60,081 nucleotides of DNA from a virus (lineage: Duplodnaviria; Caudoviricetes). The stretch is taken from IMG/VR virus record IMGVR_UViG_3300021963_000141, positions 1 to 60,081 of that record. One strand, given 5' to 3'. Below the pieces are notes generated by a model. It had not been told where the DNA came from, searched no databases, and was given only the letters and a program-made list of their open reading frames with translations. Of this stretch, positions 36,481 through 55,006 are shown one piece after another (positions within the stretch are counted from its first letter, which is position 1; each line of letters begins with the position of its first letter). The translations under genes and the position numbers were made by a program.

Positions 36481-36518
36481 CATACTACTAAGACACTTTA
36501 GAGGTGAGTAACTTTAAT
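36481..36518 (-). repeat. 38-bp cassette/promoter motif, copy 1
   Basis: ATTAAAGTTACTCACCTCTAAAGTGTCTTAGTAGTATG, followed by a G-run. Confidence 0.95.
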
Positions 36519-36528
36519 ACCCTACTAA

Positions 36529-36702
36529 TCACCAACGGTCAGGTGTACTTAAGTCCTCAACGTAAGCATCACACTTCTCTGCAGGTTCCAACTTGAATAA
36601 CTTCTCCCAGTCAATCTGATGTGGGTCGAAGTCAGGAAACGCTTGAATGTCTAGAGTGATGCGATAACGAACCTTCTGTGCCTGGTTGTATGCTACTGAC
36701 AT
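36529..36702 (-). CDS. Hypothetical protein
   Basis: Likely start MSVAYNQ at 36702, with an AAGGAG RBS and a promoter at 36730-36758. Confidence 0.7.
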   Translation of the reverse strand: MSVAYNQAQKVRYRITLDIQAFPDFDPHQIDWEKLFKLEPAEKCDAYVEDLSTPDRW

Positions 36703-36729
36703 AAGTGCGCTCCTTGTGTTACTGAAAGT

Positions 36730-36758
36730 ATTGTAAGATGCTGGGCGGATTTTGTCAA
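36730..36758 (-). promoter_or_regulatory. Sigma70 promoter (leftward)
   Basis: TTGACA-N17-TACAAT. Confidence 0.8.
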
Positions 36759-36830
36759 TGAGTCTGGGGATATTTATGAGGGACCTGTGTATTTTTGTGC
36801 GGGATGTGTGGGGATTTTGTGACGGGGCGC

Positions 36831-36859
36831 TTGACAATTTCTTGGAGGTGTGATAGCTT
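36831..36859 (+). promoter_or_regulatory. Sigma70 promoter (rightward, into the DnaA-box cluster)
   Basis: TTGACA-N17-TAGCTT with an extended TG. Confidence 0.55.
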
Positions 36860-36904
36860 GCAGGCAAAGATCACAAGGTCCAGAAGGATTTAAATGACTA
36901 TAAG

Positions 36905-36968
36905 TTTTCCACAATTCTAACAGTTTTTCCACACATTTATTATACTTTTTCCACAACATTGTGGAAAA
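36905..36968. promoter_or_regulatory. Cluster of four DnaA boxes
   Basis: TTTTCCACA at 36905, 36925 and 36947, and inverted TGTGGAAAA at 36960. All match TTWTNCACA and the cyanobacterial box. Confidence 0.75.
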
Positions 36969-36994
36969 CTAATATCATTATTTCAACACTTAAA

Positions 36995-37002
36995 TATAAA
37001 TA
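36995..37002 (+). promoter_or_regulatory. T4 late promoter TATAAATA for the GIY-YIG gene
   Basis: Exact consensus 26 nt upstream of the ATG. Confidence 0.7.
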
Positions 37003-37028
37003 ACGCAAGTATATTTTTCATCAATTCA

Positions 37029-38042
37029 ATGGCATATATCTATTCAATTACCAACCTTGAGAATAGCAAACTCTATGTGGGAAAGACTACTCAACCCAAC
37101 CCATATGATAGATGGAAGCAACACTTACAGAACGCAAGAAGTAAGGATAATTTAGCAGAGAACAATTCAGTTCATTCTATGCCTATTGTTCGTGCCATAT
37201 GTAAATACGGAGCAGACAACTTTAAGTTTAGAGTATTGGAAGAATGTAGTGATGATGATGTTAATGAACGTGAAACCTTTTGGATAAACAAACTTGATAC
37301 TTGTGGTAAGAATGGGTATAACATTACGTTAGGTGGTGATGGTGTAAAGAAACCACGAAAGTATTGGGCAAATCATCCACATTCTAAAGCAGTGAGTTGT
37401 TATACATTAGAAGGTGAATGGGTTAGAGACTATGAGAGTGTGGGAATTGCTGCTGATAGTTGTGGAAATAAAAAGGGAAAAACTGGGATAATTGCTTGCA
37501 TTAAAGGTACGACATTTCAAGCACTTGGATATAGATGGGCGTGGAAAGGTGAAACTCCTAAAGTAATAGAGAAAAGAGTAAATGTTCGTGGTGTTGTATA
37601 TGGTATCAATCCAACATTAGGACGTAAAAAGATGTGGAAATCTATGGCAGATGCAGCAGAAGAAATACAAGGAAATCGTACAAATAATCACGCTATTCAT
37701 CACTCACTTAACAGTCCTGACAATAGCAAATTACAGGTAAAAGGTTGGTATTTCTTTAGATCAAAACCAACAGATTGGACACCAGCAACAAAAGCACATT
37801 CAATAGAACACTATAAAAAAATTGCTGCAATTAGCAATGAAAAGAGAAAGAAACCTGTCTATGGTGTGAGTATTAAAACCAATGAAATTGTGGAGTTTGG
37901 TAGTATGAGTGAGGCATCATTTTTTATTAAAGGTGAAGGTAACTATAGTGGAGTTGCTAATATCAAAAACAACATTCAACGTATAAACAATGGGCAAACT
38001 TGGTGCAATGCTTATGGTTATAGATGGTATGAAAAAGCATAA
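37029..38042 (+). mobile_element. GIY-YIG homing endonuclease with NUMOD1-like repeats (seg-like)
   Basis: YIYSITN..NSKLYVGKT, R.KQH, AI.KYG..NFKF..LE, E..WI, GYNIT.GG. Three C-terminal S..AA...GY.W repeats. Antisense to its neighbours. Confidence 0.92.
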
Positions 38043-38070
38043 AAAAGAGGGTATAATCCCTCTCTCTTTA
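38041..38070. terminator. Bidirectional terminator between convergent genes
   Basis: A6-GAGGG-loop-CCCTC-T-rich. Confidence 0.6.
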
Positions 38071-38321: not shown

Positions 38322-38322
38322 T

Positions 38323-38520: not shown

Positions 38521-38522
38521 AA

Positions 38523-38726
38523 TCAGGCAGCGATTGCAGATTCCATACGAACTGTTTTTGTATCAATCAAAGCATAGTCATAGTCACCTTCTTCAAGTTT
38601 TTGAGCATATGCTTCTGCAGCAGATTTGCAATCAAACAAACACAGGGAATCAAAGTGCTCGCCTTCATAATTCCAACCGCCAATCACAGCGTAAACTTTC
38701 ATCTGGGAGAATTGTGCAGTGGTCAT
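38523..38726 (-). CDS. Hypothetical protein; ATG supplied by repeat copy 2
   Basis: VYAVIGGWNYEGE..LFDCKSAAEAY. Confidence 0.7.
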   Translation of the reverse strand: MTTAQFSQMKVYAVIGGWNYEGEHFDSLCLFDCKSAAEAYAQKLEEGDYDYALIDTKTVRMESAIAA

Positions 38727-38761
38727 ACTACTAGGACACTTTGAAGGTGAGTAACTTTAAT
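38724..38761 (-). repeat. 38-bp motif, copy 2
   Basis: ...CACCTTCAAAGTGTCCTAGTAGTATG. The upstream stop is directly adjacent (38762). Confidence 0.95.
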
Positions 38762-39085: not shown

Positions 39086-39103
39086 TGTCAGAAGTGCAGT
39101 GGT

Positions 39104-39141
39104 GATACTACTAAGACGCTTTGGAGGTGAGTAACTTTAAT
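39104..39141 (-). repeat. 38-bp motif, copy 3
   Basis: ...CACCTCCAAAGCGTCTTAGTAGTATC. Confidence 0.95.
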
Positions 39142-39153
39142 TGTCGTAGAGTT

Positions 39154-39504: not shown

Positions 39505-39542
39505 GATACTACTAAGACACTTTGAAGGTGAGTAACTTTAAT
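39505..39542 (-). repeat. 38-bp motif, copy 4
   Basis: ...CACCTTCAAAGTGTCTTAGTAGTATC. Its TAA ends a 46-aa ORF at 39538-39678. Confidence 0.95.
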
Positions 39543-40160: not shown

Positions 40161-40343
40161 TCAGTTACCAAAGAAAGAATTAAACTCATCTGCAATCTGA
40201 TCAATCAGTTCATCAGTTGCATCAAGGTCAAAGAGACAACAAACAAAATCTACACAATCATTCAAATCTGTGTGATTGTTGCACATAAACTCCAGAAGTG
40301 CAGGAGTGATGTCGGTTTGGAAGTCAGGAGAAGTGTTGTTCAT
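40161..40343 (-). CDS. Acidic hypothetical protein; ATG supplied by copy 5
   Basis: The ORF starts inside the repeat. Confidence 0.7.
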   Translation of the reverse strand: MNNTSPDFQTDITPALLEFMCNNHTDLNDCVDFVCCLFDLDATDELIDQIADEFNSFFGN

Positions 40344-40378
40344 ACTACTAGGACACTTTGAAGGTGAGTAACTTTAAT
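40341..40378 (-). repeat. 38-bp motif, copy 5
   Basis: Supplies both the TAA (40374) of the upstream ORF and the ATG (40343) of the downstream ORF. Confidence 0.95.
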
Positions 40379-40726: not shown

Positions 40727-40764
40727 GATACTACTAGAACGCTTTAGAGGTGAGTAACTTTAAT
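40727..40764 (-). repeat. 38-bp motif, copy 6
   Basis: ...CACCTCTAAAGCGTTCTAGTAGTATC. Confidence 0.95.
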
Positions 40765-41368: not shown

Positions 41369-41406
41369 GATACTACTAGGACACTTTAGAGGTGAGTAAC
41401 TTTAAT
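41369..41406 (-). repeat. 38-bp motif, copy 7
   Basis: ...CACCTCTAAAGTGTCCTAGTAGTATC. Confidence 0.95.
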
Positions 41407-41664: not shown

Positions 41665-41835
41665 TCAGGAAACGACAGAGTAACAAGCAACGGAGGAAGG
41701 AATCCCACCTAGTTGTAAAGAACCGTTGCGGTCATCACAATACTCTTGGGCATCATCTTCAGAGTAGAAAGGTCCAATGTGCTCTGGAGAATCCAGAGCA
41801 TCAGAATCAAAACGGACGGTGAAAGTGTTGCTCAT
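41665..41835 (-). CDS. 56-aa hypothetical protein; ATG supplied by copy 8 (not in ORF track)
   Basis: MSNTFTVRFDSDALDSPEHIGPFYSEDDAQEYC... Confidence 0.65.
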   Translation of the reverse strand: MSNTFTVRFDSDALDSPEHIGPFYSEDDAQEYCDDRNGSLQLGGIPSSVACYSVVS

Positions 41836-41870
41836 ACTACTAGAACACTTTAGAGGTGAGTAACTTTAAT
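41833..41870 (-). repeat. 38-bp motif, copy 8
   Basis: ...CACCTCTAAAGTGTTCTAGTAGTATG. Confidence 0.95.
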
Positions 41871-42528: not shown

Positions 42529-42780
42529 TCAGAAGTGTGCCTCAGAGTAGTCAAGAACTTCGCTGTACTTAGCGATACCATCATAGCAACGCTTTGCCAT
42601 TTCAGAATCACCTTCAGCAACGTAACCTTTCAGAAACTCGAAGCAGTATTTGATACGCAGTTCGGGTGCAACTGCAGCGAGTTGTTGTTGCTTACGTTGC
42701 TGATAATTTGCGTTGTATGCAAACATTTCACGATCTTCGAGAGAGATGTTGTGAAACTTGCGGTCGGTAGTGTTGGTCAT
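42529..42780 (-). CDS. Hypothetical protein; ATG supplied by copy 9
   Basis: The ORF starts inside the repeat. Confidence 0.7.
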   Translation of the reverse strand: MTNTTDRKFHNISLEDREMFAYNANYQQRKQQQLAAVAPELRIKYCFEFLKGYVAEGDSEMAKRCYDGIAKYSEVLDYSEAHF

Positions 42781-42815
42781 ACTACTAGGACACTTTGAAG
42801 GTGAGTAACTTTAAT
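42778..42815 (-). repeat. 38-bp motif, copy 9
   Basis: ...CACCTTCAAAGTGTCCTAGTAGTATG. Confidence 0.95.
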
Positions 42816-43251: not shown

Positions 43252-43683
43252 TCAACGAGCATACAAATACCCCCCGCTCCAATCTGCATTTTCCAGCAGA
43301 TACTCACGATCTTTAATCAATCGCAGGTCATAACGTACACCTTTCGCAGGAGATTTCCAAGTGGCAGACTTATATACTTCGCCAGTGTTCTTGTCAATGA
43401 AACAATGAACACTGCGGGAACCGCCACCATTCACAAAGATAACTTTGTGATACTTTTTACCAGTTTCTACCTGATAATCAATCGGGCAAATACCAAACTT
43501 AAGTTCATCAATACAACGCTGATGATACTCTTGAGTGTCAGCATCATTCACGAACTTTTGATGACCGCGAATAGAATACTGAATGTAGTTTTGCTTGAGT
43601 GCTTCAATCAGCAGCAGAGTGTTCTTATACACATTCTCTGCGATGGTTTGCTTTGCTTGTGCTTGCATTGTAGTGTTGCTCAT
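43252..43683 (-). CDS. Conserved phage hypothetical protein; ATG supplied by copy 10
   Basis: GKKYHKV...SVHCFIDK.TGEVYKSATWKSPAKGVRY. Confidence 0.8.
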   Translation of the reverse strand: MSNTTMQAQAKQTIAENVYKNTLLLIEALKQNYIQYSIRGHQKFVNDADTQEYHQRCIDELKFGICPIDYQVETGKKYHKVIFVNGGGSRSVHCFIDKNTGEVYKSATWKSPAKGVRYDLRLIKDREYLLENADWSGGYLYAR

Positions 43684-43718
43684 ACTACTGGGACACTTTG
43701 AAGGTGAGTAATTTTAAT
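43681..43718 (-). repeat. 38-bp motif, copy 10 (two variant bases)
   Basis: ATTAAAATTACTCACCTTCAAAGTGTCCCAGTAGTATG. Confidence 0.93.
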
Positions 43719-44629
43719 CAACCCCAATTCTTTACCAGATTGAAGTTTGCGCGGGAGAATTGGTAACGATCAATAACTTTCATCATACCAAATTGATTCG
43801 TCATCACATAACCTTCGTGGTCAGACTTTTCCCCATCAATGTAACACTGGATACTCTCATCAGTGTGAATGAAGAAGAATAAATCCATCTTGATTGAATA
43901 CACCAACTTCCACAAACGCAGCAGGTTGATGTCAACATCATAATTTTCTGCAATTTCGTGCTCGCAGACCTCCTTACCCTCACGAATGTAGGAATTGATG
44001 ACTTTTTTGATTTCTGTTGCCTTGCGCTCAGACAAAAACTCACATAGAGTGCTCATCTGTTTGGCAAACTTACTGATGTCTTCCAGATCTTCACGATAAG
44101 GACAAATATCAGCTTTAGGACTCACAAACTTTGCATAATGAGTGTCTGTGATGATAAAGTCCATCGGGTAAGCAACAGCATCCCTCAGATCTTTATCAGC
44201 AACGTAGAACGTATGGGGAGCAACAATAATCTCCTGATGGACTACCTCAGGGAACTTGTAAGTGATCGTATTGGGGCGAAAAGTATCAGAACCACCAAAA
44301 CCGATAAAATCACCTTGAAAGATATAATCTGTGCGAGGAAGATAATCAAGGCAAGCGTGAAGAATAGACGCAACTTTACCCTGATGGTTCGTATCAATTT
44401 CATCGTGAGAATGATTGATTTTGATTTTTACTTTGTTGAACACAGATTTGGTGCCCACAAAGAACTTGCCATTGGCAGGATTGCGACCCCACACAATAGC
44501 AGGAGCACCATCCATCTTCACGCTGATAGTAGAATCAGCGGAGAACCAATCAAGAACCGAAAGATCACCATTAAGGATGCTATCTTCGGGGTGCTCAAGA
44601 TGTTTGTTCTGCATTGATTGCTTGCTCAT
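43718..44629 (-). CDS. Ligase/nucleotidyltransferase-superfamily protein (DUF6267-like)
   Basis: HLEHPED, motif I-like SVKMDGAP, QGDF, HEGYV, MKVIDR..FSRANF. Confidence 0.7.
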   Translation of the reverse strand: MSKQSMQNKHLEHPEDSILNGDLSVLDWFSADSTISVKMDGAPAIVWGRNPANGKFFVGTKSVFNKVKIKINHSHDEIDTNHQGKVASILHACLDYLPRTDYIFQGDFIGFGGSDTFRPNTITYKFPEVVHQEIIVAPHTFYVADKDLRDAVAYPMDFIITDTHYAKFVSPKADICPYREDLEDISKFAKQMSTLCEFLSERKATEIKKVINSYIREGKEVCEHEIAENYDVDINLLRLWKLVYSIKMDLFFFIHTDESIQCYIDGEKSDHEGYVMTNQFGMMKVIDRYQFSRANFNLVKNWG

Positions 44630-44664
44630 ACTACTATGACACTTTGAAGGTGAGTAACTTTAAT
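44627..44664 (-). repeat. 38-bp motif, copy 11
   Basis: ...CACCTTCAAAGTGTCATAGTAGTATG. Confidence 0.95.
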
Positions 44665-44668
44665 TACT

Positions 44669-44872
44669 TCAAACTTCCATCAGTTTCTGTAAACGATTGC
44701 GAATGTCAAACAGTTCCATTTCATCCATATCTACATCATCAAGACCAACAGGAGCAAACTCTTCAAGATTTACACTACCATTTTGCATAATGGGAGCATA
44801 ATACAACTCATCACCATCTTCTTGTGAGAGAGTATAAACGCAACCGTGACCAGGAACAGTGAGAAAAATCAT
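44669..44872 (-). CDS. Hypothetical protein; single-gene unit
   Basis: Fills the space between copies 12 and 11. Confidence 0.7.
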   Translation of the reverse strand: MIFLTVPGHGCVYTLSQEDGDELYYAPIMQNGSVNLEEFAPVGLDDVDMDEMELFDIRNRLQKLMEV

Positions 44873-44885
44873 TGTTTTGAGTGCT

Positions 44886-44923
44886 TACACTACTAGGACG
44901 CTTTGGAGGTGAGTAACTTTAAT
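44886..44923 (-). repeat. 38-bp motif, copy 12
   Basis: ...CACCTCCAAAGCGTCCTAGTAGTGTA. Supplies the TAA of the methylase. Confidence 0.95.
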
Positions 44924-45476
44924 CCAGTGGTAGTTTTGCTTCTGATGTACTCTTTGGAATTACAAGTTCCTCCATAATGATTTGCTTCGGCAAAAAGTTC
45001 CAACAATAGTAACTAGAACTGAAGGTAATCTTGTCGTTTGCACGACCATCAGGACTATGAAACTTCATACGCTTATCAAACATCAACAGTTGCAAGTCTT
45101 TGTCCTTGAATAACTGCTTAGGAGCACTATCATTCAACCAAGTGTTAGTCATAATGAGAGCAAATGGTTTCTCAAATGATAATGCTCGCTCGAAGAACTT
45201 GCGTTTGTTTGTGAATGGTGGATTGGACACAATTACATCCCACTCAAAGTCAGGAACATAAGTGAGAAAGTCTTGCCCAGTTGAAATGTGGGTATGAATG
45301 ACTGTATTATGTGGAGAGATTTGCTTTACAAACTCACTCTCAGCAGTATCAAATGGACACCAAACCTTTGCATCTTTGGGGATGTATTTCAGAATGGGAG
45401 TTACACCGTATTCTGGAGTGTAACATTCGTCGTTGTTACCTCCAGAGTACATCAGTTTTCCACTATCAAGCGTCAT
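44919..45476 (-). CDS. Small N6-adenine/N4-cytosine DNA methyltransferase
   Basis: DECYTP, VWCPFD (SAM-binding), GQDF, IVSNPPF (catalytic motif IV). Confidence 0.8.
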   Translation of the reverse strand: MTLDSGKLMYSGGNNDECYTPEYGVTPILKYIPKDAKVWCPFDTAESEFVKQISPHNTVIHTHISTGQDFLTYVPDFEWDVIVSNPPFTNKRKFFERALSFEKPFALIMTNTWLNDSAPKQLFKDKDLQLLMFDKRMKFHSPDGRANDKITFSSSYYCWNFLPKQIIMEELVIPKSTSEAKLPLD

Positions 45477-45970
45477 ACAATGCGAGTCCCAAACTGTTGG
45501 ATTTCTTTCTTAGTCAGACTACCAGAAAGGCGGGGATCTTTGTGCTTACCGTGAATCTTACGCTCCCAATCTTTCTTGAGTTTGGGTAGAAGAATCATCA
45601 GCACATCGTTACCAGTAAGTTTCCACACTTCCACCACTTTGCCACTCTCATAGCGAGCAATGTAGTGGTTAGAGTATTTACCAAGTTTCTCTTCAATCAG
45701 ATAACGCTCCTGCTCTTCCCAAGTATCTTGAACACTGATACCATTATAGGTGCCATTGATAGAATTGGCAATGGTTGATTTATACTCACATTCACCATTT
45801 TCATCCACAGCATCAGCACCAGAATAAGTATCTGCTACTTTATGCCCAAGAATACCAGCAAGGTGAATCTCACGAGAGCGAGCATAAGAGAATGGATCTC
45901 CCCAACCCTGTTCTTCACAAAGTTGATACATCTGCTCAAATAGTTCTTGAAACTTTTGTTCAGGAGTCAT
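45473..45970 (-). CDS. Putative PD-(D/E)XK (restriction-like) endonuclease
   Basis: RE.HLA..LG...GADA.DENGECEYKS. Translationally coupled to the methylase. Confidence 0.6.
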   Translation of the reverse strand: MTPEQKFQELFEQMYQLCEEQGWGDPFSYARSREIHLAGILGHKVADTYSGADAVDENGECEYKSTIANSINGTYNGISVQDTWEEQERYLIEEKLGKYSNHYIARYESGKVVEVWKLTGNDVLMILLPKLKKDWERKIHGKHKDPRLSGSLTKKEIQQFGTRIV

Positions 45971-45982
45971 TTATGGAGTGCC

Positions 45983-46020
45983 TATACTACTACAACACTT
46001 TGAAGGTGAGTAACTTTAAT
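45983..46020 (-). repeat. 38-bp motif, copy 13
   Basis: ...CACCTTCAAAGTGTTGTAGTAGTATA. Supplies the TAA at 46016. Confidence 0.95.
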
Positions 46021-46201
46021 TGATAGGAAGTTTGCCTAATGACTTACCTTTCTTATGGTCTGTGATGTACTTTCGTGCTGATGCTTCTGTCCTACAGAGT
46101 TTCTCAAGTTGCTGACCATTGTGGATGATGAGATACTGATTGCCATAGGGAATCGCAGCGTAAGTATCTTTGAACATCGTAAATCCTTGCTTCATAATCA
46201 C
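46016..46201 (-). CDS. Hypothetical protein
   Basis: YAAIPYGNQYLIIHNGQQL motif; coupled to the helicase stop. Confidence 0.7.
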   Translation of the reverse strand: MIMKQGFTMFKDTYAAIPYGNQYLIIHNGQQLEKLCRTEASARKYITDHKKGKSLGKLPIN

Positions 46202-47439
46202 CTCCGCACCACACTGATTGCAGGTTCGCCCTTCTCGAAGATAGTGTCAACCACAGACTGCACAGCACGAGCAGTAGCAATACCAACCTTAGAATACACA
46301 GGAATACAAACCAGACCGAACGATTTGCTATACTGACTCAGATTGCCAGGTTCGATACGTCCATCGCGCAAACCTTTGGCATCATCGTGATGCAAACGAA
46401 TGCAACGTCCGATGGTCTGACTGATGCCAATGAAGTCCATATTGCGAAGGAACAGCACTGCTTCCAGACCGCTGACGTTGATACCTTCTGCGAGGATGGA
46501 GTGGTGAAGAACAACGAACTTCTTGTCGTTATCTTTACCCCAGGCACTCAGGGTATCAAAGAATACCTCACGGTTCACTTTCTTACCATCAATAACTGCA
46601 CCCGTCTGGGCAGTAATATACATCCACGAATAACCGCGACATTCCAACTGGAAGCAGAAATCAGTTTCAGTTACCAGCGATACGATTTGCTTGGTTGCCT
46701 TAGCACAAATCAGAATCTTGCCAACCTTGTTGTCATCAATGGTTTCCAACAGATTCTCAGAGTCACGGTCGAAGTTAGTCTGCTTTCCCTGTACCATCTG
46801 CAGTTGCTTGACAATCACTTTAGGGGGCACAATGTAACCACCCTCAACCAACTCAGGAGCAGGAACTTTGCAGATTACCTGACCATATACGTCAGTATCA
46901 TTCATACCTGCCTTACCCACAGCAACCGAATGTTTCGGAGTTGCAGTGAAGAAGTAGCAGCGACGTGCATTAGCAGCGAAGTGCTCAGTTGCGGGGAAAA
47001 AGTGACGCTGAACAGAATTATGTGCCTCATCAAAGTAGATGGTATCCACATCAATTCCTGCCACTTGAAGACGCGACAGTGAGTTGTAGGTGGTTACAAT
47101 CAGGCGATGATTGTTGGCATTAGCATCACACCAACGACGAATCTCATAAGGGCGAGTAGAAGATTCGTGATGAGTTTCGCCACTGTGAACGTGCAGAACT
47201 TCAGCGTTAGTGATAAACTCCAGAAACTCAGAAGAGAGTTGCTCAGCAAGCAAAATGCGCGGAGCAACAACAACAATCGTCTGGGGAGTTTCAGACTGCA
47301 ACTCGCGCAGACAATCATAAATCATCTTCAGAGTCTTACCACCACCAGTAGGTACAATGATTTGACCTTTGTTGTGCTTTTGCATTGCAGCAACGCCACG
47401 TTCTTGATGAGGGCGAAGTTGAATCAAATCAGAGAACAT
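46198..47439 (-). CDS. SF2 DEAH-box helicase (ResIII-like)
   Basis: LRPHQ, PTGGGKT, APRILL, FDEAHN, FTATP, LAEGINV, QTIGRCIR. Confidence 0.92.
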   Translation of the reverse strand: MFSDLIQLRPHQERGVAAMQKHNKGQIIVPTGGGKTLKMIYDCLRELQSETPQTIVVVAPRILLAEQLSSEFLEFITNAEVLHVHSGETHHESSTRPYEIRRWCDANANNHRLIVTTYNSLSRLQVAGIDVDTIYFDEAHNSVQRHFFPATEHFAANARRCYFFTATPKHSVAVGKAGMNDTDVYGQVICKVPAPELVEGGYIVPPKVIVKQLQMVQGKQTNFDRDSENLLETIDDNKVGKILICAKATKQIVSLVTETDFCFQLECRGYSWMYITAQTGAVIDGKKVNREVFFDTLSAWGKDNDKKFVVLHHSILAEGINVSGLEAVLFLRNMDFIGISQTIGRCIRLHHDDAKGLRDGRIEPGNLSQYSKSFGLVCIPVYSKVGIATARAVQSVVDTIFEKGEPAISVVRR

Positions 47440-47480: not shown

Positions 47481-47516
47481 ATTATAGCACGCTTACAGGC
47501 GATTGTGAAGCGTGCT
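47481..47516 (-). promoter_or_regulatory. Sigma70 promoter overlapped by an inverted repeat
   Basis: TTCACA-N17-TATAAT with TG; AGCACGCTT/AAGCGTGCT arms. Confidence 0.75.
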
Positions 47517-47530: not shown

Positions 47531-47568
47531 TATACTACTATAACACTTTGGAGGTGAGTAACTTTAAT
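47531..47568 (-). repeat. 38-bp motif, copy 14
   Basis: ...CACCTCCAAAGTGTTATAGTAGTATA. Confidence 0.95.
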
Positions 47569-48696: not shown

Positions 48697-48734
48697 TACA
48701 TTACTAGAACACTTTCAAGGTGAGTAACTTTAAT
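48697..48734 (-). repeat. 38-bp motif, copy 15
   Basis: ...CACCTTGAAAGTGTTCTAGTAATGTA. Confidence 0.93.
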
Positions 48735-51106
48735 TAGATAGGAAATGAGGTTCCAGGAATATCTGTAGATTTTCTAGGTTTTGATTTTGGTGCTGCTGGT
48801 TTCATAGGAGCAGGACCAGAAGGTTTCATTGTAGATCTAAGATTTCTTTGAGATTCTGCGTCAAGTGAAATCACATTATCTGGTTTGATTGGATCACCAA
48901 CTGCTTCACGACGCAATTCTTTTCTCAATTCATTCTTAAGTTGCTCTCTTTCTTGTGCTTTTTGACGCTTTTTTCTTCTTGCTTGTTGATGAGATGCAAC
49001 ACGCTCTTGCGATGCAGTTACTTGTTGTCTTTGTCTTTGCATCAATTCTCTTCTTCTTCCTTCTAAATCTTCAAAAACAACATATAACCAATCTTCACTC
49101 ATATTTTCGACAATAACACTTGCTGCTTTTGCATTATCAGCATAACCTTCAGAAATTAGATAATCTTGAATCAAATCAAAATAATCAAATGATTCTTTCA
49201 TTTTTGTGGTATATGTTCTATTATTCCAAGTGAATCCAGTTTTACCTGACTTACGAGCAGCAGCAAATGCTTTATCAAATGATTGCGCTTTTGTTAATCC
49301 TTGGTCTGGATTTGCTGGACCTTGTTTTGGTTTGTAAACACCACTCTTTAATGCACCTTTGAGTGTAGCATCTGCAGTAGGTCTTGGTGCCATAACTGAA
49401 GCAGCAACACCTGCGGGAGTAATGTTTCTCAATGCAGCAACTGCACCAGCAACTTTAGAGACTGGTTCGGCAACTTTTCTTGCTTGATTAGCAAATCTCT
49501 GAAGTTCTGGGAACTTATTCATATTAGGACCAGTTGCACGAACAGTAGCACCAGGTCTATAAGTATTTGGTTTTGTTGCTGCTGGTTTTACTGCAGGTTT
49601 TGTTGTTGCAGGTTTTGCTGCTGGTTTTGCAGAAGTTGTTGTTGGTTTTGTTGTTGGTTTCCAAGCAGGTTTTGGTGCTCTTGGTTCAAGATTTGTTGGT
49701 CTAGTTGTTCCCATTAAACCACCACCAGTTCTACTAGTTAATCTCTGAACATCTCTAAATTGCTGAGATCTTTGTGTTGTTGTTGGTGGTTTTGCTGCTG
49801 GTTTTGCTGCAGGTTTTGCCGCTGGTTTGTTAAGATCTAGTTTTAATTGTCCAGCAGGTCTATTACCAAATCCTCCAGGTGGTCTTTTTGGTGGTGTTGC
49901 TTGTGTTGTTGAGCGTGTTTGAACTGGAGTGCTAGAAGTAAAGGGAACTCTATTTGGTTTAGTGAAGTTCTGTGCTTTTCCCTTTGAAGTAATTAAACTA
50001 GGTTGTACCGCTGCTTCAATAATATCTTGTATTGTTTCTTCACTCATATTTGACATCATATAGAGTGCTTCTTCTTCAGTTGTCACATAACCTTCATCAA
50101 GAAGATAACCTTTTACAATGTCAAAAAGGTCTAGATGTGCAACTTGAGTTGTTGGTTTTGGAGTTTGCTTTTTAACCATCCCCTGCTTCAACATATCCAT
50201 ATTTTGTTTTGTTCTTTTTATATTATCGGGAATATCTGGAATGAACGAAGCAGCGCCACCTCTAATTAAACCATCAACGCTTCTAAACGGAAACTCCAAT
50301 CCACCACTTTTTGGTGGATTTATAACTTGTTGCTCATCAACAGGTTTAATTAAAGATGATGCTGGAGTTCCTGGTTTTAATCTAACCTCCCCAACTCTTC
50401 CTGCACCTTGATTAGGAACAACTCCCATCTTAGGGTCAATCTTTACTGGAGTGCTTGGTCCTTGATTCTGCTCATTTTTCAAACCAAGATATTTTTGAGA
50501 TGCTGCACTTGGTCCTTTATTAAAGGAGTTTACCTTTGGCATTGATGCACTACCAGGTTGAACTTTATTTACTCCATCAACAGTTTTTTGCTGCTTTCTA
50601 TTATACGCATCAACCGCATCTTTTGCCATACGAACTGGATTTGGAATTGGTGTGGGTCCAAGATAACCATCTCCAGGTTTTTCTTGGAGTTGCTGACCAT
50701 CTACCTCATAAGACTGTTTAAGAAGTCCACCAACAGTTTCTTTTGCTTTATCATACATTTGTCCACCTTTTTGTCTACCAAGAAGTCCACCAACAGTTCC
50801 TCCACCAGGAATACCAGTTTTTTGTCCTTGGTTTCTACCAATTACACCACCAACAGTCTGTGCGGTGCCTCTTGCTAATTTATCAAGTGAAGCAAGAGGA
50901 TTTTCACTCAGTTCTTCGCCCTCTGGTTCATAATGTGCTTTTTGCAATCCACTCTTAGGAACATAAACCTTTTCCCCTTTAGGAATCATTTGTTGCAGTT
51001 TTCTTGCTGCAGCAGTATCTGTAGGTTTCTCTAGTGGAACACCAATTTGTTGCTCATAGACATTTTGATATGCCTGGATTAGTTCTCTATATTCCTTCGA
51101 ATTCAT
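48734..51106 (-). CDS. 790-aa modular, probably virion-internal polyprotein-like protein
   Basis: L..AY..VYE N-terminus; two FD....YL..EGY......A...NMSE modules; KPAA/KPTT repeats; TATAAATA at 51127-51134. Confidence 0.78.
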   Translation of the reverse strand: MNSKEYRELIQAYQNVYEQQIGVPLEKPTDTAAARKLQQMIPKGEKVYVPKSGLQKAHYEPEGEELSENPLASLDKLARGTAQTVGGVIGRNQGQKTGIPGGGTVGGLLGRQKGGQMYDKAKETVGGLLKQSYEVDGQQLQEKPGDGYLGPTPIPNPVRMAKDAVDAYNRKQQKTVDGVNKVQPGSASMPKVNSFNKGPSAASQKYLGLKNEQNQGPSTPVKIDPKMGVVPNQGAGRVGEVRLKPGTPASSLIKPVDEQQVINPPKSGGLEFPFRSVDGLIRGGAASFIPDIPDNIKRTKQNMDMLKQGMVKKQTPKPTTQVAHLDLFDIVKGYLLDEGYVTTEEEALYMMSNMSEETIQDIIEAAVQPSLITSKGKAQNFTKPNRVPFTSSTPVQTRSTTQATPPKRPPGGFGNRPAGQLKLDLNKPAAKPAAKPAAKPPTTTQRSQQFRDVQRLTSRTGGGLMGTTRPTNLEPRAPKPAWKPTTKPTTTSAKPAAKPATTKPAVKPAATKPNTYRPGATVRATGPNMNKFPELQRFANQARKVAEPVSKVAGAVAALRNITPAGVAASVMAPRPTADATLKGALKSGVYKPKQGPANPDQGLTKAQSFDKAFAAARKSGKTGFTWNNRTYTTKMKESFDYFDLIQDYLISEGYADNAKAASVIVENMSEDWLYVVFEDLEGRRRELMQRQRQQVTASQERVASHQQARRKKRQKAQEREQLKNELRKELRREAVGDPIKPDNVISLDAESQRNLRSTMKPSGPAPMKPAAPKSKPRKSTDIPGTSFPI

Positions 51107-51134: not shown

Positions 51135-51136
51135 AA

Positions 51137-52598: not shown

Positions 52599-52602
52599 AG
52601 TT

Positions 52603-52629
52603 AAAGGAGGGTTTTATCCCTCCTTTTTT
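52603..52629. terminator. Bidirectional terminator
   Basis: AAAGGAGGG-loop-CCCTCCTTTTTT between convergent genes. Confidence 0.75.
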
Positions 52630-52630
52630 A

Positions 52631-52894
52631 TTATTCAAACTCAAAAGATCTATTTGATACTTTCATTGGTGGAGTTTGATATTCGGGAGTAGAGGATTCT
52701 ACAAATACTTCAATTTTAGTCTCATCATTCCAATGTCTAATTACACCAGCAACAATGAAAGCATTAGTAATTAGATAAGTTGCAAAGATGAATGTGCGAA
52801 TGATTGCTACTTTATCCGATTCTTTATCACATTTACTTGCTTTCTCACCCAAAGACTTTGCCCACCAACGCCATAATGTAGTTTTCTTTTTCAT
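52631..52894 (-). CDS. Predicted membrane protein
   Basis: WRWWAKSLGEK..D.VA.IRT..hydrophobic..IRHWN. Confidence 0.75.
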   Translation of the reverse strand: MKKKTTLWRWWAKSLGEKASKCDKESDKVAIIRTFIFATYLITNAFIVAGVIRHWNDETKIEVFVESSTPEYQTPPMKVSNRSFEFE

Positions 52895-53097
52895 ACTGCA
52901 GATGATTTTTTGTTTGCTTTTGCTTGTTGCATTCCAGGTCCAAAACCAGTTTTGGGGTCAATAAGAAATCTTTGTGGTGCTGGATTGTAAGAACCATCAG
53001 ATTTGCGTAATGGGGGCATTACTCTGAAAGGTTGAACAGATTGAATTACATTCCTTGCATCTGTTGCTTCACGAATAAACTGTGAGAATGTTTTCAC
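52891..53097 (-). CDS. Small protein with capsid-targeting-like N-terminus
   Basis: MKTFSQFIRE; GATAAATA at 53125-53132. Confidence 0.72.
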   Translation of the reverse strand: MKTFSQFIREATDARNVIQSVQPFRVMPPLRKSDGSYNPAPQRFLIDPKTGFGPGMQQAKANKKSSAV

Positions 53098-53351
53098 TAT
53101 TTCTCTTGAATAATTGTCTCAGAATATTTATCTTCCCTATACCCCACATACTCCAATTCTTTCCACTGCTCGCGATAACACAATACCAATGATCTTTCTT
53201 TTTTATGAATGGGACAGGCACGATAGTTTTCTTTATCTTTAGGACGAACACGAAACTCAATGGTAATGTATTCTTTTTCCTTAAAATAAACCCAACCTTC
53301 AACACCTTTAGTCCATTTTACATAATCATTGATTTGTGGTTCGTAGGTCAT
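53097..53351 (-). CDS. Hypothetical protein
   Basis: YEPQINDYVKW..EGWVYF..YITIE. Confidence 0.72.
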   Translation of the reverse strand: MTYEPQINDYVKWTKGVEGWVYFKEKEYITIEFRVRPKDKENYRACPIHKKERSLVLCYREQWKELEYVGYREDKYSETIIQEK

Positions 53352-53629
53352 ACAAAAAACGCATCTAGAGGAGATTGTTTAATAGGCATTGCGGTGTAGT
53401 TTCGCGTGTCCGTGATATTTACACGAGCACCGATGGTTTTACTATTGATGGGGGCGAAGTATTCTCTGGTCTTGGACTTGTAGAATCCCCAGATGGTTTT
53501 TGTTGCAGCACCATTATTGTAATCAAACTTGCGATGGCAATGCAACCATATAGCAATAACTCCGCGCTTAAACTCTTCGAACTCATAAGAATACCCCTTT
53601 GGTGCTTTGTGTGGAAACTCAGCAATCAT
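53348..53629 (-). CDS. Hypothetical protein
   Basis: Likely start MIAEFPHKAPKGYSY, within ORF 53348-53719. Confidence 0.65.
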   Translation of the reverse strand: MIAEFPHKAPKGYSYEFEEFKRGVIAIWLHCHRKFDYNNGAATKTIWGFYKSKTREYFAPINSKTIGARVNITDTRNYTAMPIKQSPLDAFFV

Positions 53630-53785
53630 AGAACTTGTCTCGCGACATATACTCAATTTGTTTCTGCAGTTGTGAGATTTCGTGTTCTTGTTCTGCAATT
53701 TTCTTTTGCAGTTGTTCAACTCGTTCTTGATACTGTTTCTTCAAATCAGACACCATTTGATTGGTGTGAGCAACGTGGTGAGTCA

Positions 53786-54016
53786 TCAGGTTGTAAATGA
53801 TTCGACAATTCGGGACTCTTCTTCTCCCACAAGTGCAAAACGTGGAGCAGCAACTACTCTCTCCATAATTTTACTTTCATATCGGTCATCATAGTCATCT
53901 GAGTCTCGCAAAATATCGTGACACTCAACATCATTTTCAGCAATAACATTGATTACCCCACCATATTCGGAAGAAGGAAAAGGAACCCAATAGTCAACGA
54001 TGTACAGATGCTTCAT
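53786..54016 (-). CDS. Hypothetical protein
   Basis: YIVDYWVPFPSSEYGG motif; GAGG RBS. Confidence 0.75.
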   Translation of the reverse strand: MKHLYIVDYWVPFPSSEYGGVINVIAENDVECHDILRDSDDYDDRYESKIMERVVAAPRFALVGEEESRIVESFTT

Positions 54017-54039
54017 TTGTCTTTGTAAATTACCTCTTA

Positions 54040-54068
54040 AGTTTAGTCGTTTGTGTCGCCTTCGTCAA
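54040..54068 (-). promoter_or_regulatory. Sigma70 promoter
   Basis: TTGACG-N17-TAAACT. Confidence 0.65.
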
Positions 54069-54536
54069 GTATATTTTGGTCAGCAGCAAAGATAAATGCT
54101 GCGCCGATTGTGAGTAGAGAACCCAGTCCCATTCCAAGTAGAAAAGTCATCAATAAAACTCCGCAAGATAATAGTCAACAGGGATTTCAAGTTTTGCTGC
54201 TTCGCGTTCAACTTCTTTCCAGAACTCTTCTGCTACTTTATCCATTTCTGCTTGTTTAATAAGGTCTCGGAGTCGTTTTGGAATCATTTGGATTTCTCCT
54301 TGAGTTGTGCTTCTTCGCGTGGATATATTACCTTAAGGTAATATAGCATAATTGTGGACACAAATGCAACTAAAGTAGTGTAGATTGCAAAGGCAAGTCC
54401 TATACTCATCTCATTTGTTGGATTGCTTGTTCACGATAGTATGCCTTATGAAGAGCATCGTCACGTTTGATGAGAAATGCGTTCCATCCAAGAATTGCAA
54501 TAAAAGCAAGAAAAATGTAACTGATTTGTTTGGAAG

Positions 54537-54953
54537 TCATACTGCAAGTGCTGCGGAGGGAATTTCAACGATTTCGGGAAGTTTGCTATCATCAAACTGA
54601 TTCATATTATAGCATACCCACTCACCACTGCGGAATACATAGGCATACTCTTCGCTGTTGTCAGGCAGCAGATACTCACAGAGGTCAGCATCAAGACGCG
54701 GGGGGCAATCTTCACCACGAGCAGAGTAATACTCAGGACCATAACCAAGGTCAGGGCGAACACTACCCCAGGAAGATTCAGTCCAGCAGGAACTCATATC
54801 ACCACCATCAATCAGTTCTTCAGCAAGAGAACATGCATTGTAGTGAGTGTTCAGAATACGACCCAACCATTCAGGATATCCATCCCAGTGGTGGTACACA
54901 GAGAGTACAGAACCGTTCTTCAGTTCAATACCGATTCGTGCTCGGGTTGCCAT
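54537..54953 (-). CDS. Conserved phage hypothetical protein
   Basis: M.TRARIG...SVYHHWDGYP..LG..L, GGDMS, EYAY.F. Confidence 0.8.
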   Translation of the reverse strand: MATRARIGIELKNGSVLSVYHHWDGYPEWLGRILNTHYNACSLAEELIDGGDMSSCWTESSWGSVRPDLGYGPEYYSARGEDCPPRLDADLCEYLLPDNSEEYAYVFRSGEWVCYNMNQFDDSKLPEIVEIPSAALAV

Positions 54954-54968
54954 TTCAAGTTTGTCGCT

Positions 54969-55006
54969 TACATTACTAAAACACTTTAGAGGTGAGTAAC
55001 TTTAAT
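54969..55006 (-). repeat. 38-bp motif, copy 16
   Basis: ...CACCTCTAAAGTGTTTTAGTAATGTA. Supplies the TAA of dam. Confidence 0.93.

What the first reader, a model, noticed from the sequence alone, without database searches (positions are those of the whole stretch)
36481..55006. Sixteen co-oriented 38-bp repeats partition the early region into a gene-cassette-like array
Seen: copies start at 36481, 38724, 39104, 39505, 40341, 40727, 41369, 41833, 42778, 43681, 44627, 44886, 45983, 47531, 48697 and 54969. The minus-strand consensus is ATTAAAGTTACTCACCT-yy-AAAG-y-GT-nn-TAGTA-r-T-r-T-n, and the first 17 bp are identical in 15 of 16 copies. In all 16, the upstream gene's stop lies within 12 nt of the repeat. 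In five copies (4, 5, 12, 13, 16) the repeat's own TAA is the stop. Units between repeats run from ~260 bp to ~6 kb and hold one to a few whole genes, such as a nuclease, an R-M pair, a ligase-like gene or a peptidase. Inference: the repeat is a portable expression signal that also marks module boundaries, so genes could be gained, lost or shuffled by repeat-to-repeat recombination. This is integron-like in layout and reminiscent of PeSL elements in T4-like phages, but no integrase is visible here.
Basis: partly seen in the sequence, partly recalled or inferred. Interest (0 to 1): 0.9.

Follow-up and report, generated by a model that had tools for sequence, protein, structure and literature searches.

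The report
Cyanophage early-gene repeats that shuffle cassettes
Sixteen near-identical 40-bp signals stand in front of the gene units of a marine cyanophage's variable early region, and related phages have gained, lost and swapped those units exactly at the signals, much as known from promoter repeats in T4-like coliphages.

Summary
In detail: 16 co-oriented minus-strand copies, against 0.03 expected by chance. The window is a 29%-complete fragment of a T4-like cyanomyovirus (Kyanoviridae). The array fills the hypervariable region between a Dam methylase gene and the baseplate genes.

The element is not private to this phage. At least 118 IMG/VR stretches carry it, with up to 14 copies per contig. 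Recognisable variants occur in SynMITS9220M01, S-B43/RN05-S/RB11-B, P-TIM68 and S-SM2.

Each copy abuts the upstream stop codon. In about 45% of copies it also supplies the downstream ATG and first codons.

I read it as an early-gene expression signal, most likely a non-sigma-70-consensus promoter, but the transcription start is unproven. Relatives show precise repeat-to-repeat deletions, alternative contents in one slot, and the same cassette in different slots, each junction being one repeat. Other gene junctions are breakpoints too.

It behaves like the PeSL cassettes of T4-type phages but lacks their stem-loop terminator and sigma-70 consensus. The integron likeness is only in layout. Verdict: a real feature, and a new variant of a known kind.

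The parts
54969..55006 (-). Repeat 16, first in transcription order. Its TAA is the stop of the Dam methylase gene. The next ATG lies 46 nt after the first T of TTACTCACC.
48697..48734 (-). Repeat 15. It abuts the stop of the 790-aa ORF. ATG at +48.
47531..47568 (-). Repeat 14. It is followed by a 93-nt leader that holds a canonical sigma-70-like promoter, then the helicase ATG.
45983..46020 (-). Repeat 13. Its own TAA is the upstream stop. It heads the PvuII-like / methylase-like pair.
44886..44923 (-). Repeat 12. Its own TAA is the upstream stop. It heads a 67-aa ORF.
44627..44664 (-). Repeat 11. The ATG inside the repeat (+28) is in frame with the DUF6267 gene, and a second ATG lies at +43.
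43681..43718 (-). Repeat 10, the one copy with a mismatch. ATG at +28 and at +43, in frame (DUF7717 gene).
42778..42815 (-). Repeat 9. The ATG inside the repeat is the only nearby start of the 83-aa ORF. It heads five small ORFs.
41833..41870 (-). Repeat 8. The ATG inside the repeat is the only start of the 56-aa ORF.
41369..41406 (-). Repeat 7. It heads a 196-aa ORF (phrog_15364). ATG at +44.
40727..40764 (-). Repeat 6. It heads a 112-aa ORF with a sub-threshold DUF6782 hit.
40341..40378 (-). Repeat 5. Its own TAA is the upstream stop. The ATG inside the repeat starts the 60-aa ORF.
39505..39542 (-). Repeat 4. Its own TAA is the upstream stop. It heads a 111-aa ORF, a unit that is missing or moved in relatives.
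39104..39141 (-). Repeat 3. It heads the Kyano_Gp96 gene.
38724..38761 (-). Repeat 2. The ATG inside the repeat opens the 67-aa ORF.
36481..36518 (-). Repeat 1, last in the array. It is followed directly by a run of ten G.
44665..45982 (-). Units 12 and 13 (the 67-aa ORF plus the PvuII-like/methylase-like pair). In 14 related loci the flanks are joined here; in several the junction is exactly one repeat. In L065, unit 13 sits in another slot.
48734..51106 (-). 790-aa ORF of unknown function. It is absent from the relatives whose alignments join 48735 to about 51133. One breakpoint is at repeat 15; the other is at a plain gene junction.
47481..47509 (-). Canonical sigma-70-like promoter (TTCACA-17-TATAAT with TG, 11 of 12) between repeat 14 and the helicase gene.
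46198..47439 (-). Helicase, annotated UvsW in one cultured relative. It is the conserved anchor gene of the region and is found in 422 cultured phage records, almost all cyanophages.
55002..55874 (-). Dam-type N6-adenine methyltransferase just upstream of the array. In L031 it forms its own repeat-flanked unit between units 14 and 11. It is absent from L023 and L077.
37029..38042 (+). GIY-YIG homing endonuclease on the opposite strand inside unit 2. It is absent from several relatives, and its breakpoints are not at repeats.

Best explanation
The 16 repeats are copies of a clade-wide regulatory cassette of T4-like cyanophages (Kyanoviridae). It heads the gene units of the early, hypervariable region between the Dam methylase/helicase genes and the baseplate genes.

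Anatomy. Index 0 is the first T of TTACTCACC. Weak A/T conservation sits at -19 to -15. ATTAAAG sits at -7 to -1 and often provides the upstream gene's stop. TTACTCACCT is at 0-9, yy at 10-11 and AAAGTGT at 12-18. A TAnnnT hexamer (TAGTAT or TAGTGT) is at 24-29, followed by rAGCAACAC.

Most likely mechanism (inferred). It is an early promoter that does not match the sigma-70 consensus. The TAnnnT hexamer would be its -10 element, the conserved block would correspond to the upstream footprint of RNA polymerase, and transcription would start about 6-8 nt after the hexamer. There are no terminators between copies, so transcripts from upstream copies read through.

Second role (shown by comparison, mechanism inferred). 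The copies are near-identical, co-oriented and 0.26-6 kb apart. They therefore serve as portable patches of homology for the phage's general recombination system. This deletes, inserts, replaces and relocates whole gene units without breaking genes or their expression signals. No dedicated recombinase is needed.
For: Identity of the phage:
- Kyano_Gp96, T4-type gp25, gp6, gp8, gp15 and terminase.
- Megablast hits only Synechococcus phages.
- The region is syntenic with helicase-to-baseplate regions of S-SM2 and P-TIM68.

Spread of the element:
- 461 core instances in 118 loci. They are co-oriented in 117; the one exception is a chance 9-mer.
- SynMITS9220M01 has 12 copies. S-B43, RN05-S and RB11-B have 8, 13 and 12.
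- P-TIM68 has 13 hits, all on one strand, against 0 in a shuffle.
- S-SM2 has 7 copies in which a G-rich hairpin replaces the 5' half.

Promoter reading:
- The TAnnnT hexamer at 24-29 is the only -10-like element kept in all five variants.
- Its T24, A25 and T29 are at 0.97, 0.88 and 0.94.
- The conserved span, with A/T at -19/-18 and -16/-15 inside upstream coding sequence, is about 55-60 nt upstream of the predicted start, the size of a UP-plus-core promoter (the size comparison is from general knowledge of bacterial promoters, not from a call).
- The element occurs only at heads of multi-gene units, not at every gene junction: 16 of 47 junctions.
- The commonest start outside the repeat is ATG at +42 to +50, in all three frames: 137 of 400 copies.
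- Orthologous genes (DUF6267, helicase) carry each lineage's own variant.

Recombination role:
- 15 precise deletions relative to the window, of which 9 binned (about 8 distinct) are repeat-to-repeat, with alignment pieces overlapping by 23-56 nt. The p-value is 1e-5 against the expectation from gene junctions.
- The L055 junction switches flanks inside the repeat.
- In L065, units 13 and 11 are swapped, with overlaps of 46, 37 and 38 nt at the three junctions.
- Units 4 and 12 and the Dam gene sit in different slots in other loci. Alternative contents occupy the slot between repeats 12 and 13.
- In an independent pair of cultured phages (RN05-S and RB11-B), 4 of 7 indels touch a repeat edge.
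- PeSL papers show the same behaviour in T4-type phages, and state that T4 recombination needs under 50 bp of homology (PMC2839356 and PMC4122927, text read).
Against: No transcript data. No RNA run was listed, so the start site and even promoter activity are untested.

The element is not a sigma-70 consensus promoter. The scan flags only 1 of 16 copies, and that one uses a hexamer outside the repeat.

There is a serious tension. An ATG at +28, inside the proposed -10 hexamer, occurs in 206 of 441 copies and opens an ORF of at least 40 codons in 195 of those 206. The other two frames give 4 and 14. In 81 of 400 unique copies it is the only nearby start. In SynMITS9220M01 and S-SM2 it is the native start of the conserved DUF6267 protein. 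If transcription starts about 8 nt after that ATG, those genes can be translated only from read-through transcripts. First-in-array copies are less often of this type (6 of 33 against 35 of 92 later copies), but this is confounded by homology, and three counter-examples exist.

An alternative -10 (TAAAGT at -5 to 0) would avoid the problem, but it is absent from the P-TIM68, S-B43 and S-SM2 variants.

Recombination: repeats are not the only breakpoints. 119 distinct breakpoints lie at other gene junctions and 158 inside genes. Events are not phylogenetically independent, and breakpoints were read from BLAST alignment ends. Within-genome identity of copies is barely above between-genome identity among close relatives (0.62 against 0.58).
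Confidence: 0.6

Rival explanations
1. The element works mainly in the RNA, not as a promoter. It would be a conserved intercistronic leader of long early transcripts. It stops ribosomes in all three frames and presents the next start codon, allowing re-initiation or SD-independent initiation. It might also serve as the operator of the phage's RegA-type translational repressor or as a processing site. Its repeat-mediated recombination role would be unchanged.
For: - The ATG at +28 is a used start codon in about 45% of copies. Out-of-frame ATGs at that place are nearly absent: 11 of 206.
- Read directly from the consensus, the repeat holds stops in all three frames: TAA at -5, TAG at 21 or 24, and TGA/TAA at 29.
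- The repeat's 3' end encodes a shared M-x-N-T start in 21 of 45 unrelated ORF clusters.
- No Shine-Dalgarno sequence is visible.
- RegA (PF01818) is present in 5 of 5 Kyanoviridae genomes tested.
- T4 RegA sites are unstructured, A+U-rich and overlap the AUG, with SELEX consensus aaAAUUGUUAUGUAA (PMC3014915, passages read). This resembles UAGUAAUGUAAG of copies 15 and 16 and the P-TIM68 variant.
- The repeats are unstructured.
Against: - Start codons lie at two distances: +28, or +42 to +50 in any frame. That is hard to reconcile with one ribosome-positioning signal.
- Conservation reaches about 50 nt upstream of the +28 ATG, into the upstream gene. That is further than I would expect a ribosome or a RegA-sized site to cover (from general knowledge, not from a call).
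- Most gene junctions inside units do without the element and use overlapping stop-start codons.
- The likeness to the RegA site is a short A/U-rich match and was not tested statistically.
Confidence: 0.2
2. The element is only a promoter or expression signal. Breakpoints coincide with it because selection keeps only those rearrangements that leave whole, expressed gene units. The repeats would not themselves be the recombination substrate.
For: - Other gene junctions are also strongly enriched for breakpoints: 119 distinct breakpoints at 31 repeat-free junctions against 109 at 16 repeat junctions.
- Several gains have only one end, or neither end, at a repeat. Examples are the 790-aa ORF, the Dam gene, the GIY-YIG gene, and 3 of 7 RN05-S/RB11-B indels.
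Against: - In precise deletions the two alignment pieces overlap by 23-56 nt, which is one repeat.
- The flank switch lies inside the repeat.
- The cassette swap in L065 has three such junctions.
- Selection on gene boundaries alone predicts junctions beside the signal, or duplicated or missing signals, not exactly one chimeric copy each time.
- 9 of 15 precise deletions are repeat-to-repeat, against 12% expected.
Confidence: 0.12
3. The array is an integron-like system. The repeats would be sites for a site-specific recombinase encoded elsewhere in the genome, which excises and inserts cassettes.
For: The layout is co-oriented repeats separating one-to-few-gene units. Only 29% of the genome is in hand, so an absent recombinase cannot be excluded.
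Against: - No recombinase family was found among the 40 window ORFs scanned against Pfam.
- The repeats have no palindromic or hairpin structure.
- The variants differ between lineages in their 5' half while the arrays behave alike.
- Crossovers can be explained by the general recombination that PeSL work showed to be sufficient (PMC2839356, passages read).
Confidence: 0.03

Closest known systems
PeSLs (promoter-early stem-loops) of T4-type phages RB49/phi1, T4/PST and KVP40/nt-1 (Arbiol et al. 2010, PMC2839356; Comeau et al. 2014, PMC4122927)
   Same: Many near-identical, co-oriented short regulatory repeats lie in the hyperplastic early regions of a T4-like genome. They sit between gene units. 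Indels, replacements and displacements between relatives end in them. The 3' end reaches the start codon. No dedicated recombinase is needed.
   Different: - No stem-loop terminator. The element abuts the upstream stop codon and is unstructured.
- No near-consensus sigma-70 hexamers and no Shine-Dalgarno sequence.
- The start codon lies inside the -10-like hexamer in about 45% of copies.
- The hosts are cyanobacteria.
- Mini-circles are untested.
Early-gene regulatory element of T4-like cyanophages (Doron et al. 2016, ISME J 10:1437)
   Same: From my recollection of the abstract only: a novel, non-host-like element controls early transcription in Syn9 and P-TIM40 and is abundant among T4-like cyanophages. 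The present element is in the same genomic region and the same family.
   Different: The paper is not held, so I could not compare motifs. Syn9 has 0 PWM hits for this motif. Syn9 and P-TIM40 carry other repeated elements in the syntenic region. I found no statement in print of a recombination role for such elements in cyanophages.
S-PM2 ORFanage region (Puxty et al. 2015, PMC4503421)
   Same: A hypervariable region of small ORFs in a cyanomyovirus, discussed in the light of PeSLs.
   Different: The authors found one host-like early promoter and two stem-loops. They judged PeSL-type shuffling unlikely there because the density was far lower (passage read). Here the density is 16 copies in 18.5 kb.
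Integron attC arrays
   Same: Co-oriented repeats separate gene cassettes.
   Different: No integrase was found. The sites are not structured or palindromic. Each unit carries its own expression signal instead of relying on one common promoter.
Repeated phage-specific promoters of T7-like phages
   Same: A long (over 20 bp), nearly invariant, co-oriented sequence stands in front of gene groups.
   Different: No single-subunit RNA polymerase was found among the 40 window ORFs scanned, and from general knowledge this family is not known to encode one. The 5' half of the element differs between lineages.

Membership tests
PeSL (promoter-early stem-loop cassette) | Strong sigma-70-like early promoter (near TTGACA-N17-TATAAT) | tested here: not met
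   The consensus scan flags 1 of 16 copies, and only by using a hexamer outside the repeat. The best internal hexamers are TTACTC and TAGTAT.
PeSL (promoter-early stem-loop cassette) | Stem-loop (terminator) just upstream of the promoter | tested here: not met
   The upstream stop lies within 12 nt in 16 of 16 copies. Four repeats folded with z-scores from -0.68 to +1.09. No terminator-like site is adjacent to a repeat. The S-SM2 variant does have a GC hairpin.
PeSL (promoter-early stem-loop cassette) | Many near-identical copies concentrated in hyperplastic regions of a T4-like genome | tested here: met
   There are 16 copies in 18.5 kb and none in the other 41.5 kb. T4-like structural genes flank the array.
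PeSL (promoter-early stem-loop cassette) | Indels, replacements and displacements between related phages end in the elements | tested here: met
   and partly.
PeSL (promoter-early stem-loop cassette) | Formation of single-element mini-circles during infection | not testable with these tools
   No runs were listed for the stretch, and no culture is available.
Integron | IntI-type tyrosine recombinase next to the array | tested here: not met
   None was found among 40 ORFs scanned against Pfam. However, the record is only 29% of a genome.
Integron | attC sites: imperfect inverted repeats that fold as hairpins | tested here: not met
   The repeats show no significant structure.
Integron | Promoterless cassettes read from one common promoter | tested here: inconclusive
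   Every unit starts with the same conserved signal, which argues for a signal per unit. Transcription was not measured.
Kyanoviridae early regulatory element (Doron et al. 2016) | Lies directly upstream of mapped early transcription start sites | not testable with these tools
   No RNA holder was listed, and the paper is not held.
Kyanoviridae early regulatory element (Doron et al. 2016) | Conserved and abundant among T4-like cyanophages | tested here: met
   Variants occur in SynMITS9220M01, S-B43, RN05-S, RB11-B, P-TIM68 and S-SM2, and in at least 118 IMG/VR stretches. The motif is absent from Syn9 and from the S-SKS1 region examined.

The most novel reading that the evidence does not exclude
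The element is a self-contained 'plug' for early genes. It would be read by a factor other than the host's primary sigma, for example a virion-delivered or lineage-specific protein.

Its 3' half (AAAGyGTCC-TAnAGTAT) is shared across Kyanoviridae. Its 5' half has been replaced in concert along the whole array in each lineage: TTACTCACCT, TTAGTTACCT, or a G-rich hairpin.

The 5' half would then define compatibility groups, within which phages can trade early-gene cassettes (restriction-modification genes, methylases, host-takeover ORFs) by repeat-to-repeat recombination during co-infection. The 3' end would carry the start codon, the first codons and perhaps a RegA operator. A newly acquired gene would thus arrive with transcription, translation start and shut-off already wired.
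Probability: 0.15. Interest if true: 0.75.

Novelty: new variant of a known kind. Interest (0 to 1): 0.5.

Why it matters
T4-like cyanophages are among the most abundant viruses of the ocean. Their hypervariable early regions hold most of their unknown genes, including likely defence and counter-defence genes.

A conserved 40-odd-bp element that both heads these gene units and serves as the crossover point gives a concrete, testable mechanism for how such genes are gained, lost and moved. It extends the PeSL model to a family where the one earlier look (S-PM2) found it unlikely.

It also offers three practical uses:
- a simple sequence tag for finding early-gene cassettes in metagenomes;
- a candidate non-canonical early promoter for cyanophage and cyanobacterial genetics;
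- an explanation for unrelated small proteins sharing the same first residues.

Tried and rejected
**RNA evidence.** The look-up of sequencing runs for window:38700-48699, kind rna, listed no RNA holder. Read laying could therefore not be used.

**Literature.** Doron et al. 2016 is not held, by DOI or by PMC id. Papers citing it gave no description of its motif. Sullivan 2010 and Gregory 2016 mention no such repeat in the passages returned by term search. Supplementary files were not opened. Promoter logos in the supplements of Sullivan 2010 (Fig. S5) or of Doron 2016 might show this motif.

**Known RNA genes.** Rfam and tRNA scans of the window found nothing.

**Syn9.** PWM, regex and k-mer searches found no copy of this motif. 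They found only the late-promoter-like TAAATA words and Syn9's own early-region repeat.

**Concerted evolution among close relatives.** Within-genome identity is 0.62 and between-genome identity is 0.58, so this is not informative.

**Hairpin idea.** I considered a conserved CAC/GTG mini-stem by eye, in the window, P-TIM68 and S-SM2 variants. I dropped it because the window repeats fold no better than shuffles.

**Alternative -10 hexamers.** I considered TAAAGT at -5 to 0 and yAAAGT at 11 to 16. They would put the +28 ATG in the transcript. Neither is conserved in the other lineages, and no -35 signal lies upstream. I kept this as an open alternative rather than rejecting it.

**A shared 'AGTGTC' box.** It appears in the window motif and in the Syn9 and P-TIM40 elements, but is too short to claim homology.

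**Function of cassette genes.** PHROGs and NCBIfam gave only families of unknown function or sub-threshold hits. A PDB sequence search for DUF6267 gave nothing.

Full report
**Observation**

The 17-mer ATTAAAGTTACTCACCT occurs 16 times in the window, always on the minus strand. Fifteen copies are exact and one has a single change. Chance expectation is 0.03, and 0 of 100 shuffles reached 16.

The window is the whole public record, 60,081 b, rated 29% complete. It has no further copy. A PWM built from the 16 copies finds nothing else in the window, even at a loose threshold.

All 16 copies have an upstream ORF ending within 12 nt of the repeat start. In copies 4, 5, 12, 13 and 16 the repeat's own TAA is that stop.

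Conservation extends further than 38 bp. It runs to about ...TAGTAGTAT-rAGCAACAC. There is also weak A/T conservation 15-19 nt upstream of the TTACTCACC core (8-12 nt before the 38-bp repeat begins), inside the preceding gene.

**What the window is**

Minus-strand genes run from small ORFs and a Dam-type methylase (55002-55874), through the repeat array, to a T4-type structural module. That module holds gp25, gp6, a 3983-aa gp7-like protein, gp8, neck protein, gp15 and terminase.

One array gene belongs to the Pfam family Kyano_Gp96 (E 7.5e-39). Megablast hits only two Synechococcus phages, and one of those hits is the repeat itself. The helicase has relatives in 422 cultured phage records, almost all cyanophages, the best at 64% identity.

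The region is syntenic with the helicase-to-baseplate stretch of S-SM2 and P-TIM68. This is a fragment of a T4-like cyanomyovirus without a close cultured relative. The array fills its hypervariable early-type region.

**Spread of the element**

In those stretches I counted 461 instances of the 9-mer core. They are co-oriented in 117 of 118 loci, and the exception is a chance 9-mer. There are up to 14 copies per contig.

Cultured phages carry recognisable variants:

| Phage | Copies | Variant |
|---|---|---|
| SynMITS9220M01 | 12, co-oriented, at 36-50 kb | same core as the window |
| S-B43 / RN05-S / RB11-B | 8 / 13 / 12 | TTACTCACCTynAAAnGTC... |
| P-TIM68 | 13 | GTTAGTTACCTCTAAATTGAC-TA-TAATGTAA |
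| S-SM2 | 7 | the 3' half follows a G-rich hairpin instead of TTACTCACCT |

Syn9 has none. Syn9 and P-TIM40 have other repeated elements in the same region.

The same orthologous genes (DUF6267, helicase) are preceded by each lineage's own variant. The arrays have therefore changed their 5' half in concert.

**Anatomy and the expression question**

Index 0 is the first T of TTACTCACC. The upstream stop abuts or overlaps the element in most of 442 cases. The median gap is -1, and the element's own TAA is used 128 times. There is therefore no room for a terminator. The repeats fold no better than shuffles, and no terminator-like site lies next to one.

The only -10-like hexamer shared by all lineage variants is TAnnnT at 24-29. 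With the TTACTC box 18 nt upstream, an A/T tract before it and weak A/T at -19 to -15, the conserved block has the size of a UP-plus-core promoter. Its predicted start is near +36. That size comparison rests on general knowledge of bacterial promoters, not on a call.

The commonest start outside the repeat is ATG at +42 to +50, in any frame: 137 of 400 unique copies. This would give very short leaders without a Shine-Dalgarno sequence.

The element is not a sigma-70 consensus promoter. A canonical one sits separately between repeat 14 and the helicase gene. This fits my recollection of the abstract of Doron et al. 2016, that a novel element drives early genes and host-like promoters drive middle genes in T4-like cyanophages. 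I could not read that paper.

In 206 of 441 copies the element ends ...TAGTAGT-ATG. That ATG, at +28 and inside the -10-like hexamer, opens an ORF of at least 40 codons in 195 of the 206. The other two frames give 4 and 14.

In 81 of 400 unique copies it is the only nearby in-frame start. For the conserved DUF6267 protein it is the native start in SynMITS9220M01, S-SM2 and many relatives (M-K-N-T-H-L-E-H-P-E). The same protein starts 15 nt later in P-TIM68, and the window has both ATGs.

The 210 ORFs that start at this ATG fall into 45 unrelated clusters. Of these, 21 include members beginning M-x-N-T, which is encoded by the repeat's 3' end.

So part of the element is translated. If the promoter register above is right, these genes depend on read-through from upstream copies. 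That is possible, because nothing terminates transcription between copies. First-in-array copies are less often of this type: 6 of 33, against 35 of 92 later copies. That comparison is confounded by homology.

The alternative is that the element acts mainly in the RNA, as a leader with three-frame stops and a start codon, perhaps as a RegA-type operator. RegA is present in 5 of 5 Kyanoviridae genomes tested. T4 RegA sites are described in PMC3014915. I keep this as the main rival.

Arguments against the rival:
- Starts occur at two distances.
- Conservation reaches about 50 nt upstream of the ATG.
- The element is absent from junctions inside units.

No RNA run could be found, so this remains open.

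**Module boundaries and shuffling**

I aligned the 118 IMG/VR stretches to the window. Many are 70-88% identical over kilobases.

Reading breakpoints from alignment ends, 193 distinct length-changing events fall between 36.4 and 56.1 kb. Their 386 ends divide as follows:

| Location | Ends | Share of sequence or junctions |
|---|---|---|
| at repeats | 109 | 5% of the sequence; 16 of 47 gene junctions |
| at other gene junctions | 119 | 31 of 47 gene junctions |
| inside genes | 158 | |

Gene junctions in general are hot. Repeat junctions are moderately hotter: 48% of junction ends against 34% expected.

The sharper signal comes from the 15 precise deletions, where the two alignment pieces overlap in the relative. 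Nine bins (about eight distinct events) run from repeat to repeat with an overlap of 23-56 nt, which is exactly one repeat. The expectation is 12%, and p is about 1e-5, with the caveat that events are not independent.

Examples:
- Unit 4 is missing in five loci.
- Unit 6 is missing in L057.
- In 14 loci the flanks of units 12-13 are joined; in several the junction is one repeat.

At the L055 junction the upstream flank matches the window before repeat 13 and the downstream flank matches it after repeat 11. The switch lies inside the repeat.

A protein-level map of 22 loci shows a conserved backbone order with many presence/absence differences. It also shows alternative contents in one slot and relocations:
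- Unit 4 lies before unit 5 in L124 and L061.
- Unit 12 lies elsewhere in L128 and L022.
- The Dam gene forms its own repeat-flanked unit in L031.

In L065 the PvuII-like/methylase-like cassette (88.5% identical over 1.1 kb) has changed places with the DUF6267 unit. All three junctions overlap by 46, 37 and 38 nt.

An independent check on two cultured phages, RN05-S and RB11-B (95-99% identical), gives 7 indels, of which 4 touch a repeat edge and 3 do not.

Some gains in the window have one end or neither end at a repeat. These are the 790-aa ORF, the Dam gene in L023/L077, and the opposite-strand GIY-YIG homing endonuclease.

**Mechanism**

Shown: the repeats are module boundaries, and they are the exact junctions of deletions, swaps and relocations among natural relatives.

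Inferred: the crossovers are made by the general recombination system of T4-like phages. According to the PeSL papers this needs under 50 bp of homology and can release circles carrying one repeat (PMC2839356, passages read; PMC4122927, first two of three parts of the text read).

No recombinase family was found among the 40 ORFs scanned. Most of the genome is missing, however.

**Comparison with what is known**

The element works like a PeSL, but it fails two defining features: the stem-loop terminator and the near-consensus sigma-70 promoter. It also lacks a Shine-Dalgarno sequence. I therefore do not file it as a PeSL. I call it a PeSL-like variant in Kyanoviridae.

It shares only layout with integrons.

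The one paper I found that applies the PeSL idea to a cyanophage (S-PM2; PMC4503421, passage read) judged it unlikely there, because such elements were sparse. My searches found no description of a dense array or of repeat-mediated cassette exchange in cyanophages. Doron et al. 2016 and supplements I could not see may already show the motif as an early promoter.

**Verdict**

The feature is real, widespread and biologically meaningful. The kind of element is already known from other T4-type phages, so I rate it a new variant of a known kind.

Confidence by part:
- About 0.8 that the repeats are recombination substrates.
- About 0.6 for the whole best explanation, including the promoter reading.

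Interest is 0.5.

Noticed in passing
window 37029-38042 (+), hairpin 38041-38068: A GIY-YIG (Seg-like) homing endonuclease lies on the opposite strand inside unit 2. It is absent from at least six related loci, with breakpoints near 36837 and 38206 that are not at repeats. A terminator-like hairpin follows it.
   Followed up: partly
window 34405-35475 (-): A 356-aa ORF with an HNH_3 endonuclease domain lies just downstream of the array. It is a second likely mobile endonuclease.
   Followed up: no
window about 36470-36483 (-), directly after repeat 1: A run of ten G follows the ATG of the last repeat. The ORF from that ATG is short. This could be a slippage-prone tract or an assembly artefact. 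The S-SM2 variant of the element has a G6 tract in its 5' half.
   Followed up: no
window 47481-47509 (-): A near-consensus sigma-70 promoter (TTCACA-17-TATAAT with TG) lies between repeat 14 and the helicase ATG. S-SM2 shows the same tandem layout, element then TTGACA-17-TATACT, before its helicase.
   Followed up: partly
window 48734-51106 (-): A 790-aa ORF has no Pfam or NCBIfam family and one weak PHROG hit. It is absent from relatives, which join 48735 to about 51133. It was inserted immediately upstream of repeat 15.
   Followed up: partly
window 43718-44629 (-) and relatives: The DUF6267 protein (T4-like gene cluster 71 in S-SM2) contains the sequence VKMDG near its start, which I recall as resembling a ligase-type KxDG motif. 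No solved relative was found by sequence. In Syn9 its homologue lies elsewhere in the genome, behind a canonical TGcTATAAT promoter.
   Followed up: partly
L130-L138 (Syn9) 46.3-53.1 kb; L157-L158 (P-TIM40) 50.3-54.4 kb: Syn9 and P-TIM40 carry their own repeated early-region elements. Syn9 has a stem-loop or CCCC tract followed by CGTGTATTCTATAAGAGTCAAAGG, about 17 nt before the ATG. P-TIM40 has TGACAGTTGnATTAGTGTCACA ... CACTACC-N14-TATAAT. The P-TIM40 box ACTACC, 14 nt before its -10, recalls ACTCACC, 15 nt before TAGTAT, in the window.
   Followed up: partly
window 52603-52626: A perfect 9-bp bidirectional terminator-like hairpin (AAAGGAGGG...CCCTCCTTT) lies inside the 6-kb unit 16. It is the only strong terminator candidate within the array.
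   Followed up: no
window 41870-42013 (-): A 47-aa ORF (phrog_685) is the most conserved small gene of the array. Its homologue in Synechococcus phage S-SCSM2R is annotated 'RNA polymerase inhibitor'.
   Followed up: no
window 56338-57036 (-): A 232-aa ORF has a sub-threshold MazE/antitoxin-like C-terminus (Pfam E 7.6e-4, NCBIfam doc_partner E 1.6e-3). It lies upstream of the array.
   Followed up: no
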